Sequence record: OQ939939
From: Escherichia phage SUT_E1620
Strand: one strand, 5' to 3'
Length of the DNA: 64,000 nucleotides
The notes under the pieces are model-generated. The model searched no databases, was not told where the DNA came from, and was given only the letters and a program-made list of their open reading frames with translations. Of the stretch, positions 25,291 to 52,011 are shown in pieces (the stretch's first letter is position 1; each line of letters begins with the position of its first letter). The translations under genes and the position numbers were made by a program.

Positions 25291-25654
25291 ACCTCAGTGC
25301 TGCGCTCTCTTAACTCTTATCCAGATCAGAACCTAGGTCATTGGCCGCTAAGCCGATTCTGATTGCCCTCACTATCCTATTGGTAGGTGGCTACTGGACG
25401 TGTCACCATTCGCTGCTCTTTTCGTTCGCACCCCCATATAAAGCTCTGCCTATATAACGAGCTAAATATGCACGGTTTGGATTTACCTTTCCGAATTCAG
25501 GGTACGCAGATCACTTAATTGATAATTAACTAATGCAGTATAAACACTAGTAATAGTTAAAACAACCCTTAATGGGGCAGCCTAACTGTTCCGTATTGCG
25601 GATTGTAAACAAGAAAAATTAGCAAAATCAATTTTTACTAATGTCTCTCATTTA

Positions 25655-25700
25655 TGGGAATATTATACTATAAAATAATACTCCCTTGCAAATGAAATTT
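25655..25700 (-). promoter_or_regulatory. Sigma70-type promoter (minus strand) with ~350-nt leader before origin-binding-protein gene
   Basis: Reverse complement TTGCAA-N17-TATAAT plus CCCATAAATGAGAGA box. Confidence 0.6.
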
Positions 25701-31928: not shown

Positions 31929-31949
31929 TATACCCTCCTTCTCTAACTA

Positions 31950-31995
31950 AGACTACTATTATAACTCATTCGAAGGCGGATGTCAACAATATTTT
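31950..31995 (-). promoter_or_regulatory. Sigma70-type promoter for nrdD (minus strand)
   Basis: Reverse complement TTGACA-N17-TATAAT. Confidence 0.6.
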
Positions 31996-32169
31996 ACTAT
32001 AAAGTTCTGTAACATGATCTGAGTCAAAAAATTTTATTTGCCAACCTCTACTAAAAATAGTATAATCACGCATCCGTGTACGCGATATAAAATGATTATC
32101 TAGTACCATACATCTCCCAATAAAAGCAAGCAAATTTTTTATTTAAATGCAATATCATAGGCTTATTTA

Positions 32170-32215
32170 AAATTGTAGTTGCTTTCTCCCGTATATATTG
32201 GTATAATATATTTGT
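32170..32215 (+). promoter_or_regulatory. Sigma70-type early promoter
   Basis: TTGCTT (32179-32184), 17-bp spacer, TATAAT (32202-32207); second TTGCCA-N17-TATAAT at ~32040-32069. Confidence 0.65.
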
Positions 32216-32280
32216 AAGTTGATAAACAAGATCTTTTTGTTGATCCTCTGTTAGCGAAGTACACTATAGGAGTGTTATTT

Positions 32281-43310: not shown

Positions 43311-43684
43311 TAATTTAAAAGACTAGTAAATCGGTAGACGAAAGCCCAAGCATCTTACCTCGCAGCAGCGGTTGAAATACGAGGTTAAATAAGACCGCTG
43401 ACCATACTATAAGGTATAATCTATTGGAGATTATGTTTATTACATCAGACATTTAATCTGACACGTAAAAACAAAAGGTCGTTGGTAGTACCAACACAAC
43501 TTCAAAGATCAACGCTCAAGTATGAAAGCTGAAAAGTTAAAAGCACTCAAACTTCTAACCTTCTAAAGCTAAAAGATGCAAAGTATTCGTTGATGATTCA
43601 AACCCTAGATCAAAGGTACATGGCTCATAAGATATGGCCTGTGGCGCCTCTAGGCTGTTTATCGGTTTACTAGTCTCTCAATTT

Positions 43685-43730
43685 AAAAATGTATTTGCTA
43701 ATTAGTTTAGTTTTCTGTATAATATATTTT
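43685..43730 (+). promoter_or_regulatory. Sigma70-type early promoter
   Basis: TTGCTA (43695-43700), N17, TATAAT (43718-43723). Confidence 0.7.
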
Positions 43731-43753
43731 TAAATTGATGAGACGAGGCTCCT

Positions 43754-45122: not shown

Positions 45123-45293
45123 ATGAAATCAGTTGTAATTATTGGTGTTAATACTCGTGGTATCCGTACTACGAAAACAGTTAAAACTACTAACGTTGCT
45201 GAAATTACTACAAACCCTAAGAAGTTTGATTTCGCTAAAGTCTCGGCAGTTATGACAGAACAATCTTTTAACCAAGCACTGGGAATTAAATAA
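45123..45293 (+). CDS. Small hypothetical protein (~56 aa)
   Basis: ATG after GAGAGGAAG RBS downstream of promoter; below track size cut-off. Confidence 0.35.
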   Translation: MKSVVIIGVNTRGIRTTKTVKTTNVAEITTNPKKFDFAKVSAVMTEQSFNQALGIK

Positions 45294-45736
45294 TGGAAGA
45301 GAATATTCTAGATGTTTTGCGTAGGGCTTTGCAGGAATCTAAGGTTGATGGTTCTGATAAAGAAGTAGCTAAAAGCTACCAGACCATAATCGGAGATCTT
45401 CAGCGTGTTGATAAAGACTTCATTACTTCTGAACAGTTTGTATCTTATCTAAAAGCTCAACTGAAAAGCATTAATCAGACGAAAGCTAAACTTCACGGTC
45501 AAGACCTTGATAATTATAGCTTGCAGTCTGCTCAGTATGAGTATATACTGAACAAATGGCTACAACAGTATCTGCCGCCTCAGTTATCTGATTCTGAGAT
45601 TCGCAAATACTTTGCAGAATTAGTTAAGTTGAACCCTGGGATTACAAAAGGTATGCTGATGAAAGCGATTAAGGAAGAGTTTCCTGGTCGTTACGACGGT
45701 GGCATTGCTGCTCAGGTTGCTGGCGAATTTAATTAA
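45293..45736 (+). CDS. GatB/YqeY-domain protein
   Basis: 147 aa; pattern YLPxQLSxxEI...GITKGMLMKAIKEEFPGRYDGGIAAQVAGE parallels YqeY C-terminal region. Confidence 0.55.
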   Translation: MEENILDVLRRALQESKVDGSDKEVAKSYQTIIGDLQRVDKDFITSEQFVSYLKAQLKSINQTKAKLHGQDLDNYSLQSAQYEYILNKWLQQYLPPQLSDSEIRKYFAELVKLNPGITKGMLMKAIKEEFPGRYDGGIAAQVAGEFN

Positions 45737-45780
45737 AAATTGATTTGCTAAACGCCTCAAAATTCTGTATAATAGATTCA
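45733..45780 (+). promoter_or_regulatory. Sigma70-type early promoter driving ORF-free tract
   Basis: TTGCTA (45745-45750), N17, TATAAT (45768-45773), CATAAATTAGAGAAC box; no ORF for ~830 nt downstream. Confidence 0.7.
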
Positions 45781-46621
45781 TAAATTAGAGAACAGCGAGC
45801 CGATTACGCTGAGTGAGTTTAGTGATTCCTACTAGGATAGCTATTCCACTGAATAGAGTCGGTGAGTTGGAGACTAGTAAGTACTCTGAGAGAGGCTACG
45901 AGCTAACGCTTATTGCTATTGATAGGGAACTGAAAATCTGCGGAAAACTCGGGAGCTGTCCCGAAATCTCGTAAACTCTTCTCTAGTTTATGTTAGTGGG
46001 GTGTCGAACTGACTTATGTGATAACACTGCCGTCCTAGTATAAACGGTAATATCAAACCGTAACTGGTGGAAGATGCAGGTTCGAATCCTGCGGTCGGAA
46101 AGAATCAGATAACTCGGGCTTATACCGGATAAGCATTCGCTGCTGGAGTACATACTATGACGGTTCAGGAGGTACGCCGCCTGATCAGTATTAGGTTAGA
46201 ATCGAAACAGCTAAACCACGAGGAAACCTGACGGCCTCAACCAAACTCGGAACTCGGGATCACTGCCTAGTGTGTGCCCCGTTTAACATAGAGACTAGGC
46301 ATCGAAAATCGGAGGTGTGATTCTACCAGACCGCGTGAATATGAGAGTGGGAAATGCTGGCATGAGAGATGTCACTAATGGTGCCCAATAGTACAGGTAA
46401 TTCGCGATAATTCCTGTTGAGTGGCAGCAGTAGGCTGGGAGTCATGACCTAAGCCTAACCGAGTTCTTCACATACGGAGAACATAACCACAAAGTCACCC
46501 TGACTTAAACTGGAGGATATTGTCTGACGGAAGGGCTGCAGAGCTTAATCTGAGGGGGCTGACCCTACCTACCGTCGGGTATCTTTAAGAGCTTTTATAA
46601 GAGTTCTTAAAAATACCTAAA

Positions 46622-46693
46622 CGGGGTGTAGTCTAAGGGATAGGCAGGAGTCTTCTAAATTCCTTTATGCAGGTTCGAATCCTGTCACCTCGG
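46622..46693 (+). tRNA. tRNA-Arg (anticodon TCT)
   Basis: Hand-folded cloverleaf: acceptor CGGGGTG/CACCTCG, anticodon loop CTTCTAA, T-loop GGTTCGAATCC, 3' GCCA. Confidence 0.75.
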
Positions 46694-46722
46694 CCAATTT
46701 TATTAACTGTTAGGAAAATAAA

Positions 46723-46923
46723 ATGAAAACACGATATATAGTAAAAGTAGTAGGTGAACATTCACAAGTAAATACCACCGATGTTACAGCACTAGCATTT
46801 GAGGTAATCTCCGGTATAGTCATATTTCATAATGGAGATATCAAAGCTCCTGAATTTGCTGTGGATGCTAGCCTGTTTATTTCTGCAACTAAAGTAACTG
46901 TAGTAGCTAACTCTTCTAAATAA
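46723..46923 (+). CDS. Hypothetical protein (66 aa)
   Basis: ORF with RBS AGGAAAA. Confidence 0.5.
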   Translation: MKTRYIVKVVGEHSQVNTTDVTALAFEVISGIVIFHNGDIKAPEFAVDASLFISATKVTVVANSSK

Positions 46924-46934
46924 TAAGGAAATAT

Positions 46935-47879
46935 ATGTTTACTAAAAACACTAAAGAACTGACTTCCGATCAAAAAGTAATTCGTACTATTAAACGTTGG
47001 GGTGTTGGTGCTGTAGTTGGTCTTGGCGCTCTTATTCTGGCTCTCAATTCCTATACAGTTGTTCAGGACGGTACGGTTAAAACTCAGACTTTCCTGGGTA
47101 AAGTTAGTCCTAATCCTGTATTGCCGGGGTTCCATATTGTTAACCCATTTGCTTCTTTTGATACTTTTAGTACGAAAGATATTTCCATGAAACTGGATAA
47201 ACTTCAGGTTCCTAGCCAGGATAAGTTTAAGTCTACTGTTGACATTACCGTTATGTTGCAGTTTGATGGTGCTAAAGCTCCTATGAACCGTGTTAACGCA
47301 GGTACTCAGGATCAAGCTCTGAACAAGTACGTTGAAGAGAAGATGCTGTCTACGATTCGTGAGTTTGGTAAGTCTGTACCAAAAGCACAAGATCTGTTCG
47401 ACGCTAAGATTCAGGCTCAACTGCAAACCGCTATTCAGCAAGAAGTAGAAGAGTACGCGCGCCCTTATGGTTACACCGTTAAGCAAGTATTCCTTCAGGA
47501 TATTACTCTGCCACCGGTAATTATGGAACAGGTACAGAACACCAAAGTTCGTGAAGAACAAGTTAACGCTGCAAAAGCTGAACTGGCTCGTGTTGAACAA
47601 GAAGCACAGCAGAAAGTTAAGCAAGCTGAGGCAGATCGTTCCGCTCGTGAAAATATGGCAGTAGCTAACGAACGTGACGCAGATGCTAAACTGTACGCAG
47701 CTAAGAAAGAAGCTGAAGCTAACGCCGCTCTGCAACGTACCATTACTCCTGAAATGATTCGTTGGAAGCAGCTGGAAGTTGAAATGCTTCGTGCTGAAAA
47801 ATACCAAGGTGGTGTACCGCAGACTGTTGTCGGTACTGGCTACGATGGTCAAATGATCATGGATATGCGTAACAAGTAA
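46935..47879 (+). CDS. SPFH/band-7 (prohibitin-like) membrane protein
   Basis: N-terminal TM helix (WGVGAVVGLGALILAL), SPFH-like core, C-terminal coiled coil; 341-aa minus-strand ORF here judged antisense artefact. Confidence 0.7.
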   Translation: MFTKNTKELTSDQKVIRTIKRWGVGAVVGLGALILALNSYTVVQDGTVKTQTFLGKVSPNPVLPGFHIVNPFASFDTFSTKDISMKLDKLQVPSQDKFKSTVDITVMLQFDGAKAPMNRVNAGTQDQALNKYVEEKMLSTIREFGKSVPKAQDLFDAKIQAQLQTAIQQEVEEYARPYGYTVKQVFLQDITLPPVIMEQVQNTKVREEQVNAAKAELARVEQEAQQKVKQAEADRSARENMAVANERDADAKLYAAKKEAEANAALQRTITPEMIRWKQLEVEMLRAEKYQGGVPQTVVGTGYDGQMIMDMRNK

Positions 47880-50377: not shown

Positions 50378-50941
50378 ATGTTTAAGACAATACCTGAATT
50401 TCCTATGTATAAAATTTCTGAAACAGGCAAAGTTTACTCATTGCATGTTAACAGAGAAATAGCTACTTATCTTAACAATAAAGGTTATCCATGTGTTAAG
50501 CTAAGTAAAAATGGTGTTGAGCATACTCTTTTAATATCTAGACTATTATGCAGAGTATTTAAAGATTTAGAAGATCTTTATTCCTCTAAAGAAGTAGACC
50601 ATAAAGATAGAAATCCGGCAAATTTTGAACTAAGCAACCTACAAGTTCTTAGTAAAGAAGAGCACGTAATAAAAACATGTTCTGATAACAATATTAGTAG
50701 AAGAACGGATGTTTGTCCTATTTGTGGTGATACTAAGCATAAATCCTCAAAAGCCTGCTTAAAGTGTACTGCTTCGGCTAGGATTAAGAGTAGAGATATT
50801 ACAAAAGAAGATATAGAGTATTGGGTACGAAACTTCTCCTGGGCTAGAGCTTCAAGAGAACTTGGACTATCTGATAATGGACTCCGAAAGAGATATAAGG
50901 CTCTTGGGGGAGACCCTAAAAATATTTGCACCTTTAGCTGA
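50378..50941 (+). CDS. HNH homing endonuclease with C-terminal DNA-binding module
   Basis: HNH core (EVDHKDRNPANFELSNL), Cys cluster, C-terminal LSDNGLRKRYKALGG shared with ORF 52201..52782. Confidence 0.75.
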   Translation: MFKTIPEFPMYKISETGKVYSLHVNREIATYLNNKGYPCVKLSKNGVEHTLLISRLLCRVFKDLEDLYSSKEVDHKDRNPANFELSNLQVLSKEEHVIKTCSDNNISRRTDVCPICGDTKHKSSKACLKCTASARIKSRDITKEDIEYWVRNFSWARASRELGLSDNGLRKRYKALGGDPKNICTFS

Positions 50942-50999
50942 GATGGATTAGCGCTTGCCTGAAGAGCTTGAGAGGTTGGATCGTTACCAACGGGGTGCA
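50928..50999 (+). tRNA. Candidate tRNA-Phe (anticodon GAA) with non-canonical T-loop and weak anticodon stem
   Basis: 7/7 acceptor pairing GCACCTT/GGGGTGC, D-stem GCTG/TAGC, anticodon loop CTGAAGA, T-stem GTTGG/CCAAC with loop ATCGTTA (54/58 swapped), A73-CCA; anticodon stem has two U-U mismatches. Confidence 0.45.
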
Positions 51000-51825: not shown

Positions 51826-51905
51826 GGGTCGTTAGCCAAGCGGTTTGGCGGTGGACTGTTAATCCATGTCGAAAGACAACGTAGGTTCGAATCCTACACG
51901 GCCCG
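51826..51905 (+). tRNA. tRNA with GTT (Asn) anticodon and a 13-nt hairpin variable arm
   Basis: Acceptor GGGTCGT/ACGGCCC, D-stem GCCA/TGGC, anticodon stem-loop GTGGA-CTGTTAA-TCCAT, variable arm GTCGAAAGACAAC, T-loop GTAGGTTCGAATCCTAC, G73, CCA. Confidence 0.6.
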
Positions 51906-52011
51906 CCATATTCTGTGTAGAGTTAAGTAAACCGGTAGCCAACCAGTTATCATTGCTGATATCGAATTCAGTCACAGATACCATTTTTCATTAACAACTG
52001 AGGAAATAGAT

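What the first reader, a model, noticed from the sequence alone, without database searches (positions are those of the whole stretch)
45733..46700. Promoter-driven ~830-nt ORF-free tract ending in tRNA-Arg: candidate structured ncRNA or multi-element precursor
A canonical early promoter (TTGCTA-N17-TATAAT at 45745-45773) fires into ~830 bp with no ORF of 60 aa or more on either strand. The only clean tRNA is at the 3' end (tRNA-Arg TCT, 46622-46693). Inside are GC-rich self-complementary segments and an orphan, perfectly canonical T-arm (GCAGGTTCGAATCCTGC, ~46076-46092) with no pairable acceptor stem. In a genome this tightly packed, a transcribed non-coding stretch this long is unexpected; it could be a novel stable RNA, a tRNA-like decoy/processing scaffold, or decayed tRNA genes.
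Basis: seen in the sequence. Interest (0 to 1): 0.65.

Follow-up and report, generated by a model that had tools for sequence, protein, structure and literature searches.

The report
Large folded phage RNA (T5 RNAX)
The gene-free stretch is this phage's copy of "RNAX", a long-annotated but never explained stable RNA of phage T5; it proves to be a large, intricately folded, modular RNA with a built-in tRNA look-alike and loop features that suggest it sticks to copies of itself.

Summary
In detail: a promoter (45745-45773) reads into the longest ORF-free tract of the window, which ends at tRNA-Arg(UCU). It is not a new gene. It is the orthologue of rnaX, which GenBank records of T5, BF23 and DT57C annotate as a stable RNA of unknown function. 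About 520 phage records carry it, all T5-like (Demerecviridae). It has no Rfam family, and no paper in the searchable library mentions it. Comparative analysis shows a modular, heavily base-paired RNA of about 835 nt (45787-46621). It has an optional 5' domain with a covarying pseudoknot and a long covarying stalk capped by a tRNA-like cloverleaf (46029-46100). A variable middle follows, then a conserved 3' domain (five-way junction, three-way junction, 3' hairpin). Compensatory changes far exceed the controls, and no ORF is conserved. Two 3'-domain loops are self-complementary in nearly every lineage. One is near-invariant (AGUCAUGA). The other switches between six different palindromes, the signature used to argue for symmetric kissing loops in GOLLD and OLE. 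My best reading is a stable RNA released by RNase P that probably self-associates. Function is unknown, and the T5 st0 deletion shows it is dispensable in the laboratory.

The parts
45745..45773 (+). Early sigma-70 promoter (-35 TTGCTA 45745-45750, -10 TATAAT 45768-45773), homologue of T5 promoter P16-17
   Evidence: Consensus scan. T5 annotation. Alignment with T5, My1 and KEY shows the block CTAAAAATTCATTTGCT...CTGTATAATAGATTCATAAATTAGAGA conserved.
45787..46621 (+). RNAX orthologue as a whole, about 835 nt. The 5' end is placed by homology to the annotated T5 rnaX start. The 3' end is the base before tRNA-Arg and is the inferred RNase P cut.
   Evidence: blastn to T5 rnaX and about 520-580 T5-like phage records. 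MFE -267 kcal/mol, z = -5.08. No Rfam family apart from tRNA.
45785..45986 (+). Domain I, an optional 5' module closed by the helix UUAGAGAA (45785-45792) / UUCUCUAG (45979-45986). It is absent from T5, where only the closing stem remains, capped by UAAU.
   Evidence: Alignment of 18 variants. T5 reads UUAGAGAG-UAAU-UCUUCUCUAA. KEY loses one base pair on both strands. ORFs here differ in frame and length (53, 44, 42, 36 aa or none), and indels are not multiples of 3.
45793..45862 (+). Hairpin CAGCG-AGCCGAUUA-CGCUG (45793-45811), whose loop pairs with AGUCGG (45857-45862): a candidate pseudoknot
   Evidence: The loop and its partner covary in four lineages: CCGA/UCGG (window), CUGA/UCAG (KEY), CAGA/UCUG (My1, DU_PP_V), CAUA/UAUG (PR1). 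The stem changes CAGCG/CGCUG to CAGCA/UGCUG in My1.
45994..46008 (+). Near-invariant segment UAGUGGGGUGUCGAA at the start of the core; its pairing partner is unresolved
   Evidence: 96% column identity. RNAalifold and MFE propose different long-range partners, and none can be tested by covariation.
46009..46117 (+). Long stalk (5' strand 46009-46022, 3' strand 46104-46117) with conserved internal loops AACACUG and AAAGA, capped by the tRNA-like domain
   Evidence: On alignment A1, 96.9% of cells are paired against 29-43% in slid controls. 16 of 29 pairs carry changes on both sides against 0-4 in controls.
46029..46100 (+). Embedded tRNA-like cloverleaf (T-arm 46076-46092). The 'anticodon' is not conserved, and the anticodon-like stem has only about 3 bp.
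   Evidence: Rfam tRNA 29.3 bits here, 38 in T5, 50 in KEY, 26-33 elsewhere. ARAGORN calls give ACT, CGA, TGG and TCA, and the My1 record annotates tRNA-Leu. A short hairpin replaces it in PSa2, L004 and PR1, with a compensating stem. The anticodon-like stem covaries: ACC/GGU against GGC/GCC.
46118..46134 (+). Hairpin GCUUAU-ACCGG-AUAAGC
   Evidence: Compensatory variants are GCUUUU/AAAAGC, GCUUC/GAAGC, GGUUC/GAACC and GGUUA/UAACC.
46135..46343 (+). Variable middle domain. It is replaced by unrelated sequence in Tequintavirus and contains the conserved block GCAUCGAAAAUCGGAGGUGUGAUUCUACCAGACCGCGUGA (46299-46338).
   Evidence: blastn finds no similarity to the T5 group for query positions 402-614. 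The block is 90-92% identical in Klebsiella and Yersinia phages.
46346..46490 (+). 3' domain part a: a five-way junction closed by GUGG (46347-46350) / CCAC (46487-46490), with arms Ha (46358-46374), Hc enclosing Hb, Hd and He (46463-46482)
   Evidence: On A3, 89.4% paired against 37-49%, and 12 of 37 pairs compensatory against 0-4. After realignment of 26 sequences with model R1, 88.5% against 28-50%, and 24 of 37 against 4-9. Independent MFE folds of each lineage give the same junction.
46393..46417 (+). Hairpin Hb (ACAGG...CCUGU) whose loop carries the palindrome UCGCGA (46402-46407): candidate symmetric kissing loop 1
   Evidence: The stem covaries: ACAGG/CCUGU, CUAGGAAG/CUUCCUAG, GUAUAC/GUAUAC, UAUGC/GCAUA, ACAUGU/ACAUGU. 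The loop stays self-complementary under six sequences: UCGCGA, CGCGCG, CUCGAG, CCGCGG, GUGCGCAC, GUGCAC. Three lineages keep only CGCG.
46431..46457 (+). Hairpin Hd with the loop AGUCAUGA (46440-46447), where GUCAUGAC is an 8-nt palindrome: candidate symmetric kissing loop 2
   Evidence: The loop is identical in every homologue that has the 3' domain, across Markadamsvirinae, Sugarlandvirus, KEY and DU_PP_V. My1 has AGUCAUGC. The stem beneath it covaries.
46493..46519 (+). Hairpin AGUCA-CCC-UGACU followed by the conserved single strand UAAACUGGAGGAUA
   Evidence: Near-invariant, so covariation says nothing. The motif is duplicated around an 87-nt insertion in T5.
46524..46578 (+). 3' domain part b: a three-way junction. 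The outer helix CUGACGG/CCGUCGG encloses two hairpins and the conserved linker GCUUAAU.
   Evidence: Most of 17 sequence variants fold to the same architecture with different outer helices: AGACG.UUACC/GGUA.CGUCU, CAGUAG/CUACUG, GACAG/CUGUC, GACUG/CAGUC. L004, L022 and L081 fold differently in part.
46578..46617 (+). Terminal hairpin of about 16 bp (GGUAUCUUUAAGAGC...GUUCUUAAAAAUACC) at the 3' end of RNAX, with no U-tract
   Evidence: Conserved from Klebsiella phages to My1 with G-U and A-U exchanges. It stays with the RNA when an ORF is inserted before tRNA-Arg. No terminator-like site is found.
46622..46696 (+). tRNA-Arg(UCU), co-transcribed. Its 5' processing would create the RNAX 3' end.
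   Evidence: ARAGORN. Rfam 49.3 bits. T5 has the same arrangement, with rnaX ending one base before tRNA-Arg.

Best explanation
The tract is the orthologue of phage T5 rnaX. It is a non-coding, multi-domain RNA of about 835 nt, made from a conserved early promoter as one transcript with tRNA-Arg(UCU). Shown here: homology and synteny with the annotated T5 gene, no conserved reading frame, and a conserved architecture supported by many compensatory changes. That architecture comprises an optional 5' domain with a pseudoknot, a stalk capped by a tRNA-like cloverleaf, a swappable middle, and a 3' domain of a five-way and a three-way junction plus a terminal hairpin. Inferred: RNase P cutting at the 5' end of tRNA-Arg releases the RNA. 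The 16-bp terminal hairpin then shields its 3' end, which would explain why the T5 record calls it 'stable'. The tRNA-like cap acts as a structural or recognition module rather than a decoding tRNA. Two self-complementary loops of the 3' domain (AGUCAUGA and the UCGCGA-type loop) form symmetric kissing contacts between copies, so the RNA would work as a homodimer or higher-order assembly, as GOLLD, ROOL and OLE do. The biological role is accessory and probably concerns tRNA or translation biology, or host takeover. That last step is a guess.
For: Identity: blastn to T5, where the stretch is annotated 'rnaX, stable RNA with unknown functions' between promoter P16-17 and tRNA-Arg. rnaX is also annotated in BF23 and DT57C. 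Conservation: 528 phage records match the core, and homologues occur in Sugarlandvirus, KEY, phiR2-01, My1 and DU_PP_V. Structure: covariation counts are far above the slid and shuffled controls. Separate lineages fold the same way. The fold is more stable than shuffles, z = -5.1. The pseudoknot has four covarying versions. T5 removes the 5' domain cleanly and keeps its capped closing stem. Non-coding: ORFs are short and conserved in neither frame nor length, and the 53-aa ORF has no Pfam hit. Self-association: the Hd loop is near-invariant and palindromic, and the Hb loop switches among six palindromes while its stem covaries. Kretsch et al. 2025 used the same argument for OLE L9.3 and GOLLD L21a (PMC12286853). 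Context matches GOLLD and ROOL: phage-encoded, next to a tRNA island, and GOLLD sometimes holds tRNAs inside.
Against: No experiment is available here, and 'stable RNA' rests only on the wording of the T5 GenBank record. Each palindrome taken alone is weak against loop shuffles (P = 0.007-0.56). Three lineages keep only CGCG, and My1 keeps only CAUG in Hd. The lineages are related, so the palindrome switches represent few independent events. There is no sequence or structure match to the GOLLD, ROOL or OLE models. PR1 keeps the 5' half but lacks the 3' domain at this locus, and Vibrio phage pVp-1 shows none of the motifs in the 50 kb searched. The T5 st0 deletion removes rnaX without killing the phage, so any function is conditional. 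Whether the tRNA-like cap is cut out by RNase P is unknown.
Confidence: 0.6

Rival explanations
1. A monomeric tRNA-mimic ribonucleoprotein or decoy. The tRNA-like cap on its stalk is the working part. It would bind tRNA-recognising proteins: the weak YqeY-like protein encoded just upstream, host modification or processing enzymes, or tRNA-cleaving defence nucleases. The rest of the RNA would be scaffold.
For: The cloverleaf is conserved in acceptor stem and T-arm (89-93% column identity) while the 'anticodon' varies. The upstream ORF 45293-45736 has a YqeY-like match (E = 1.7e-5), and this synteny holds across Markadamsvirinae. Other T5 tRNAs are known to counter tRNA-targeting defences (PMC11464382; PMC10644984).
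Against: A plain hairpin replaces the tRNA-like cap in PSa2, L004 and PR1 while the rest of the RNA is kept, so the cap is dispensable for whatever the RNA does. The YqeY score is below Pfam's cut-off (25.4 against 27), and the gene is not adjacent in Sugarlandvirus. This reading does not explain the near-invariant palindromic loops or the conserved 3' domain.
Confidence: 0.2
2. A cis-acting leader. The tract would exist only to control transcription, processing or stability of tRNA-Arg and the downstream genes (46723-47879), with no function as a free RNA.
For: One promoter and no terminator before tRNA-Arg or the next genes. The RNA is physically fused to the tRNA precursor in most phages.
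Against: About 835 nt with more than 15 covarying helices is far more than any known tRNA leader. In many phages an ORF separates the RNA from tRNA-Arg, yet the RNA and its terminal hairpin are unchanged. The T5 record describes it as a stable RNA species.
Confidence: 0.1
3. A DNA-level element or decaying spacer: remnants of tRNA genes, a recombination hotspot for homing endonucleases, or a protein-binding or nicking region where the palindromes are DNA sites.
For: Homing-endonuclease genes sit at module borders (HNH_3 in L035, T5orf172 in My1_076). The region is mosaic. The CG-rich palindromes resemble restriction-type sites, and T5 nick sites contain GCGC according to the T5 annotation.
Against: Compensatory double changes that preserve strand-specific pairing, including G-U pairs, fit an RNA and not duplex DNA. 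The palindromes lie exactly in the loops of covarying stems. Only one 70-nt piece is tRNA-like.
Confidence: 0.05
4. Several small protein genes, as annotated in some GenBank records (Seabear, Sugarland, IrmaTschudi).
For: Automatic annotations place 33- to 107-aa 'hypothetical proteins' over the homologous DNA.
Against: No ORF of 60 aa or more is present here. Frames and lengths are not conserved and indels break the frames. There is no Pfam hit. Substitutions follow base-pairing rather than codon structure.
Confidence: 0.03

Closest known systems
Phage T5 rnaX (RNAX), misc_RNA in NC_005859 and AY734508, also annotated in BF23 and DT57C
   Same: Homologous sequence over the core. Same promoter (P16-17), same position after the YqeY-like gene, and the same direct fusion to tRNA-Arg(UCU).
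   Different: The window's copy is about 835 nt against 719 nt. It carries a 200-nt 5' domain that T5 has reduced to a capped stem, has an unrelated middle domain, and lacks T5's 87-nt insertion with its duplicated motif. The records state no structure or function for RNAX.
GOLLD RNA (Rfam RF01998)
   Same: Phage-encoded, next to a tRNA island, 600-900 nt, with many covarying helices. Both have a better-conserved 3' part and a variable 5' part, a tRNA or tRNA-like element inside some members, and loops that covary between palindromes (PMC12286853).
   Different: No hit to the GOLLD covariance model at E up to 10 in the window or in 7 homologues. Hosts differ (Enterobacterales phages). Oligomerisation of RNAX is untested.
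ROOL RNA (Rfam RF03087)
   Same: Phage or prophage RNA of about 600 nt near tRNA islands, with pseudoknots, no known protein partner and unknown function. ROOL has a symmetric kissing loop (L18) that is highly conserved, as Hd is here.
   Different: No model hit. The secondary structure is unrelated.
HIV-1 dimerisation initiation site, and OLE loop L9.3
   Same: A hairpin loop carrying a 4-8 nt self-complementary sequence that can change to another palindrome without losing self-pairing (OLE; HIV-1 from general knowledge).
   Different: Those contacts have been shown experimentally. Here they are inferred from sequence alone.
Bacterial Y RNA YrlA, and other tRNA-like modules in larger RNAs (tmRNA, plant-virus TLS, mascRNA) - recalled from general knowledge
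   Same: A tRNA-shaped module with a canonical T-arm, built into a longer non-coding RNA and not used for decoding.
   Different: No Rfam hit to those families. In RNAX the acceptor stem, not the anticodon stem, continues into the carrier helix. A Ro/Rsr partner was not looked for.
Small stable RNAs in phage tRNA clusters (T5 RNA3; T4 species 1 and 2 RNAs from general knowledge)
   Same: Non-tRNA stable RNAs co-transcribed and processed with phage tRNAs, function unknown (rna3).
   Different: Those are 70-140 nt. RNAX is five to ten times larger and multi-domain.

Membership tests
T5 RNAX (rnaX) | Sequence homology to the annotated T5 rnaX | tested here: met
   blastn blocks at 79-94% identity across the core, and every conserved motif is shared.
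T5 RNAX (rnaX) | Same genomic setting: P16-17-type promoter upstream and tRNA-Arg(UCU) immediately downstream | tested here: met
T5 RNAX (rnaX) | Accumulates as a stable RNA in infected cells | not testable with these tools
tRNA (RF00005), for 46029-46100 | Covariance-model score at or above gathering | tested here: met
   29.3 against 29 bits, which is marginal. Homologues score 26-50 bits.
tRNA (RF00005), for 46029-46100 | Conserved anticodon and a 5-bp anticodon stem, as expected of a decoding tRNA | tested here: not met
   Anticodon calls differ between phages: ACT, CGA, TGG and TCA by ARAGORN, and tRNA-Leu in the My1 record. ARAGORN does not call the element in the window. The stem has about 3 bp.
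tRNA (RF00005), for 46029-46100 | Free acceptor end that can be processed and charged | tested here: inconclusive
   The acceptor stem continues into a covarying stalk, and a hairpin replaces the element in some phages. Processing itself cannot be tested here.
GOLLD / ROOL / OLE (ornate large RNAs) | Match to the family covariance model | tested here: not met
   No hit at E up to 10 in the window or in 7 homologues.
GOLLD / ROOL / OLE (ornate large RNAs) | Large (over 500 nt), many covarying helices, phage-encoded near a tRNA island | tested here: met
   This concerns how it works, not family membership.
GOLLD / ROOL / OLE (ornate large RNAs) | Symmetric intermolecular kissing loops supported by palindrome-to-palindrome covariation | tested here: inconclusive
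   Six palindromes in the Hb loop and a near-invariant palindromic Hd loop, but the per-loop shuffle tests are weak.
GOLLD / ROOL / OLE (ornate large RNAs) | Forms a defined homo-oligomer without protein | not testable with these tools
   Needs native gels, mass photometry or cryo-EM.
HEARO / IscB-type guide RNA | Obligate pairing with an adjacent HNH nuclease gene | tested here: not met
   HNH or T5orf172 ORFs flank the RNA in only a minority of phages. The window and T5 have none adjacent. There is no Rfam hit.
Protein-coding gene(s) | A reading frame conserved among homologues | tested here: not met

The most novel reading that the evidence does not exclude
RNAX is a third, independent class of phage 'ornate' RNA that self-assembles through two symmetric kissing loops into a dimer, ring or cage. 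It would carry or display a tRNA-shaped module, as GOLLD and ROOL may do, but in T5, a genetically tractable E. coli phage for which a viable deletion mutant (st0) already exists.
Probability: 0.3. Interest if true: 0.9.

Novelty: new member of a known kind. Interest (0 to 1): 0.68.

Why it matters
GOLLD and ROOL, the large RNAs that phages encode beside their tRNA genes, were recently shown to form RNA-only nanocages, yet their function is still unknown and their hosts are hard to manipulate. RNAX sits in the same genomic niche and has comparable size and complexity. It shows the same kind of palindromic-loop covariation. It lives in T5-like phages of E. coli and Salmonella, which are model phages, members of the BASEL collection and phage-therapy candidates. 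If it behaves the same way, the question of what such RNAs do becomes directly testable by phage genetics. There is also an immediate practical point. Hundreds of deposited T5-like genomes annotate this locus wrongly, as hypothetical proteins or as tRNA-Sec, -Ser, -Pro, -Leu or 'OTHER', and the family has no Rfam model.

Tried and rejected
Rfam at permissive thresholds on the window and on 7 homologues gave only tRNA hits.

Pattern scans for GGAGTCATGACC...ATAACC(AC) in IMG/VR, JGI metagenomes and 185,579 species genomes returned only T5-like or Sugarland-like contigs with the full motif set. Nearly all other hits lay inside long open frames; the few that did not lacked the other motifs and any nearby tRNA. 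All were counted as chance. There was no match in 5,426 E. coli genomes or in PLSDB plasmids.

I looked for an intramolecular partner for the Hb loop, the CCGCGU in block 46299-46338. I rejected it because Tequintavirus lacks that block and the phiR2-01 loop cannot pair with it.

The long-range partner of the invariant 5' segment UAGUGGGGUGUCGAA stays unresolved. RNAalifold and MFE give different answers, and KEY lacks one of the candidate partners.

Model R1 (3' domain part a) finds only the Hd hairpin in My1 at 8.6 bits. Homology there was established by eye from motifs.

The per-loop palindrome shuffle tests were weak. MAFFT alone misaligned several helices, and mafft-qinsi was not available.

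Literature searches for RNAX and T5 stable RNA found no paper that mentions it. One 2026 preprint could not be opened.

The idea that the RNA is tied to HNH nucleases was rejected, because the association is sporadic.
Full report
WHAT IS THERE

The window is a T5-like (Epseptimavirus) genome, about 98% identical to Salmonella phage Seabear across this region. It carries 27 tRNA genes downstream of the finding. TTGCTA-N17-TATAAT lies at 45745-45773. No ORF of 60 aa or more lies on either strand between 45737 and 46722, which is the longest such gap in the 64-kb window. tRNA-Arg(UCU) lies at 46622-46696, and the T-arm sequence lies at 46076-46092.

One detail is wrong. The T-arm is not orphan. 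It belongs to a complete tRNA-like cloverleaf at 46029-46100 that just reaches Rfam's tRNA threshold (29.3 against 29 bits).

IDENTITY

blastn against 50,697 phage records finds the tract in 580 records, and the 631-nt core in 528. Nearly all are phages of Salmonella, Escherichia, Klebsiella, Shigella, Citrobacter, Yersinia, Erwinia and Pectobacterium.

In T5 itself (NC_005859 and AY734508) the homologous stretch is annotated as misc_RNA 'rnaX / RNAX, stable RNA with unknown functions'. It is 719 nt long, starts in promoter P16-17 and ends one base before tRNA-Arg. The same feature is annotated in BF23 and DT57C. The promoter block is conserved among the window, T5, My1 and KEY. By homology, the window's RNAX runs from 45787 to 46621.

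So the gene is not new. However, no Rfam family matches it, and no paper in the searchable library mentions it.

DISTRIBUTION

- Homologues occur across Markadamsvirinae, Sugarlandvirus, Erwinia phage KEY, and Mccorquodalevirinae (Pectobacterium phages My1 and DU_PP_V).
- Providencia phage PR1 keeps the 5' half only.
- The 50-kb stretch of Vibrio phage pVp-1 that holds its tRNA cluster shows none of the motifs.
- Pattern scans of IMG/VR, JGI metagenomes and one genome per bacterial species recover only T5-like contigs. Nearly all other matches lie inside long open frames, and none of them carries the other motifs.
- E. coli genomes and plasmids have nothing similar.

The RNA is therefore confined to lytic T5-like phages.

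NOT CODING, NOT DECAYED tRNAs

The short ORFs in the tract (53 aa at most) change frame and length between close relatives. Indels are not multiples of three, and the longest ORF has no Pfam match. Only one 70-nt piece resembles a tRNA.

ARCHITECTURE

Alignments show near-invariant motifs separated by helices whose sequences differ between lineages while pairing is kept.

1. Domain I (45785-45986) is closed by UUAGAGAA/UUCUCUAG. It contains the hairpin CAGCG-AGCCGAUUA-CGCUG, whose loop pairs with a downstream AGUCGG. That loop contact exists in four covarying versions: CCGA/UCGG, CUGA/UCAG, CAGA/UCUG and CAUA/UAUG. T5 lacks the whole domain but keeps its closing stem capped by UAAU. That is the way structured RNAs typically lose peripheral domains.

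2. A long stalk (46009-46022 with 46104-46117) carries the tRNA-like cloverleaf at its tip. On alignment A1, 96.9% of cells are paired, against 29-43% when partners are slid. 16 of 29 pairs have changes on both sides, against 0-4 in the controls. The 'anticodon' differs between phages and the anticodon-like stem is short, although it covaries. In PSa2, L004 and PR1 a plain hairpin replaces the cloverleaf, with a compensating stem. In KEY the element scores 50 bits and looks like a real tRNA-Pro.

3. The middle domain (46135-46343) is swapped for unrelated sequence in Tequintavirus.

4. The 3' domain starts with a five-way junction closed by GUGG/CCAC (46346-46490). On A3, 89.4% of cells are paired against 37-49%, and 12 of 37 pairs are compensatory against 0-4. 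After realigning 26 sequences with covariance model R1, 24 of 37 pairs are compensatory against 4-9. That alignment leans towards the model. However, independent single-sequence folds of each lineage give the same junction.

5. A three-way junction (46524-78) follows. Most of its 17 sequence variants fold alike, with different outer helices. The RNA ends in a 16-bp terminal hairpin (46578-46617) that is conserved as far as My1.

The whole RNA folds at -267 kcal/mol, z = -5.1 against shuffles.

THE MOST INTERESTING FEATURE

Two loops of the five-way junction are self-complementary.

- The Hd loop AGUCAUGA (46440-47; GUCAUGAC is an 8-nt palindrome) is identical in every homologue examined that has the 3' domain, while its stem varies. 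Only My1 differs, with AGUCAUGC.
- The Hb loop differs by lineage but stays palindromic: UCGCGA (window), CGCGCG (T5), CUCGAG (L004, L038), CCGCGG (Sugarlandvirus), GUGCGCAC (phiR2-01, IrmaTschudi, CitS1) and GUGCAC (My1, DU_PP_V). Three lineages keep only CGCG.

A gap-free palindrome cannot pair within one loop. Kretsch et al. used exactly this pattern, palindrome switching to palindrome, as evidence for symmetric intermolecular kissing loops in OLE and GOLLD (PMC12286853).

The caveats are real. Shuffle tests of single loops are weak (P = 0.007-0.56), and the lineages are not independent. An intramolecular partner was looked for and is not conserved.

HOW IT PROBABLY WORKS

Shown: the RNA is transcribed from a conserved promoter together with tRNA-Arg, with no terminator in between. 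It has a conserved multi-domain fold.

Inferred:
- RNase P cleavage at the tRNA's 5' end makes the RNAX 3' end, and the terminal hairpin protects it.
- The tRNA-like cap is a structural or recognition module.
- The two palindromic loops join copies into a dimer or larger assembly.

The function is unknown and accessory. AY734508 is the 8.2-kb segment missing from the viable T5 st0 mutant, and it contains rnaX.

The setting parallels GOLLD and ROOL. Both are phage RNAs next to tRNA islands, and GOLLD sometimes holds tRNAs inside and has a conserved 3' part with a variable 5' part. Membership in those families was tested with their models and is not met. The resemblance concerns how the RNA may work, not its ancestry.

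RIVALS

- A monomeric tRNA-mimic RNP or decoy. The upstream gene has a sub-threshold YqeY match. Against this, the cap is dispensable in some phages.
- A purely cis-acting leader. This is unlikely, given the size and the phages in which an ORF separates the RNA from the tRNA.
- A DNA-level element. The strand-specific covariation argues against it.
- Small proteins. No frame is conserved.

VERDICT

The feature is real and strongly supported as a large structured non-coding RNA. As a gene it is already catalogued as T5 RNAX, so it is a new member of a known kind. That kind has never been characterised, is absent from Rfam, and is widely mis-annotated. The evidence here adds a domain map, family-wide covariation and a testable self-association hypothesis.

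Noticed in passing
window 50928-50999 (+): Rfam tRNA hit of 33.4 bits (gathering 29) that ARAGORN does not call. It may be another degenerate or tRNA-like element in the tRNA cluster.
   Followed up: no
L035 715-1197; L080 315-797; L083 1014-1496; L038 1954-2463; L085 19821-20366 (My1_076): Homing-endonuclease-type ORFs (Pfam HNH_3; T5orf172/MUG113) and a recurrent 169-aa ORF with no Pfam match are inserted exactly at RNAX module borders: promoter/core, or core/tRNA-Arg. The RNA modules themselves are exchanged mosaically between phages, which suggests endonuclease-driven shuffling.
   Followed up: partly
L001 (T5) about 2050-2160: T5 carries an 87-nt insertion flanked by a tandem duplication of the motif AGUCACCUUGAC(U/A)UAAACUGGAA. 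The insert itself is a long hairpin (AUACUUACUU.../...AAGUAAGUAU).
   Followed up: no
L002 (Seabear), L030 (Sugarland), L080 (IrmaTschudi), L033; tRNA calls in L038, L082, L083, L085: Public records annotate 'hypothetical proteins' across the RNAX DNA. They label its tRNA-like cap variously as tRNA-Sec, -Ser, -Pro, -Leu or 'OTHER'. These are likely systematic mis-annotations across hundreds of T5-like genomes.
   Followed up: partly
window 46437-46449: The invariant GGGAGUCAUGACC reads like a Shine-Dalgarno sequence followed 2 nt later by AUG. The spacing is too short for normal initiation, and GGG is paired in the Hd stem, so the resemblance is unexplained. A chance pattern hit of the same sequence (L050) lies in a short intergenic gap just upstream of a 401-aa ORF.
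   Followed up: no
L096 (Providencia phage PR1) minus strand, about 22900-22150: PR1 keeps the promoter, the 5' domain with its pseudoknot, an extra tRNA-like T-arm, the stalk (with a hairpin in place of the tRNA-like cap) and the following hairpin. The 3' domain is missing, and ORFs PR1_87 and PR1_86 follow before tRNA-Arg. The two halves of RNAX can therefore exist apart.
   Followed up: partly
window 43311-43753, 25291-25699, 31929-32271: Other stretches of 340-440 nt with no ORF of 60 aa or more and no tRNA call. They may hold further regulatory or RNA elements.
   Followed up: no
L094 (T5 AY734508) 197-269; window near tRNA-Asn 51826-51908: T5 annotates a second non-tRNA stable RNA, rna3 (73 nt), directly beside tRNA-Asn. 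Whether the window has the homologue next to its own tRNA-Asn was not checked.
   Followed up: no
window 45123-45293 and 45293-45736: The two ORFs upstream of the promoter are a DUF7616 protein (116 bits) and a protein with a sub-threshold YqeY-like match. YqeY is a tRNA-binding-type domain, and GenBank calls the protein 'tRNA amidotransferase' or 'recombination-related exonuclease'. The pair is syntenic with RNAX across Markadamsvirinae.
   Followed up: partly
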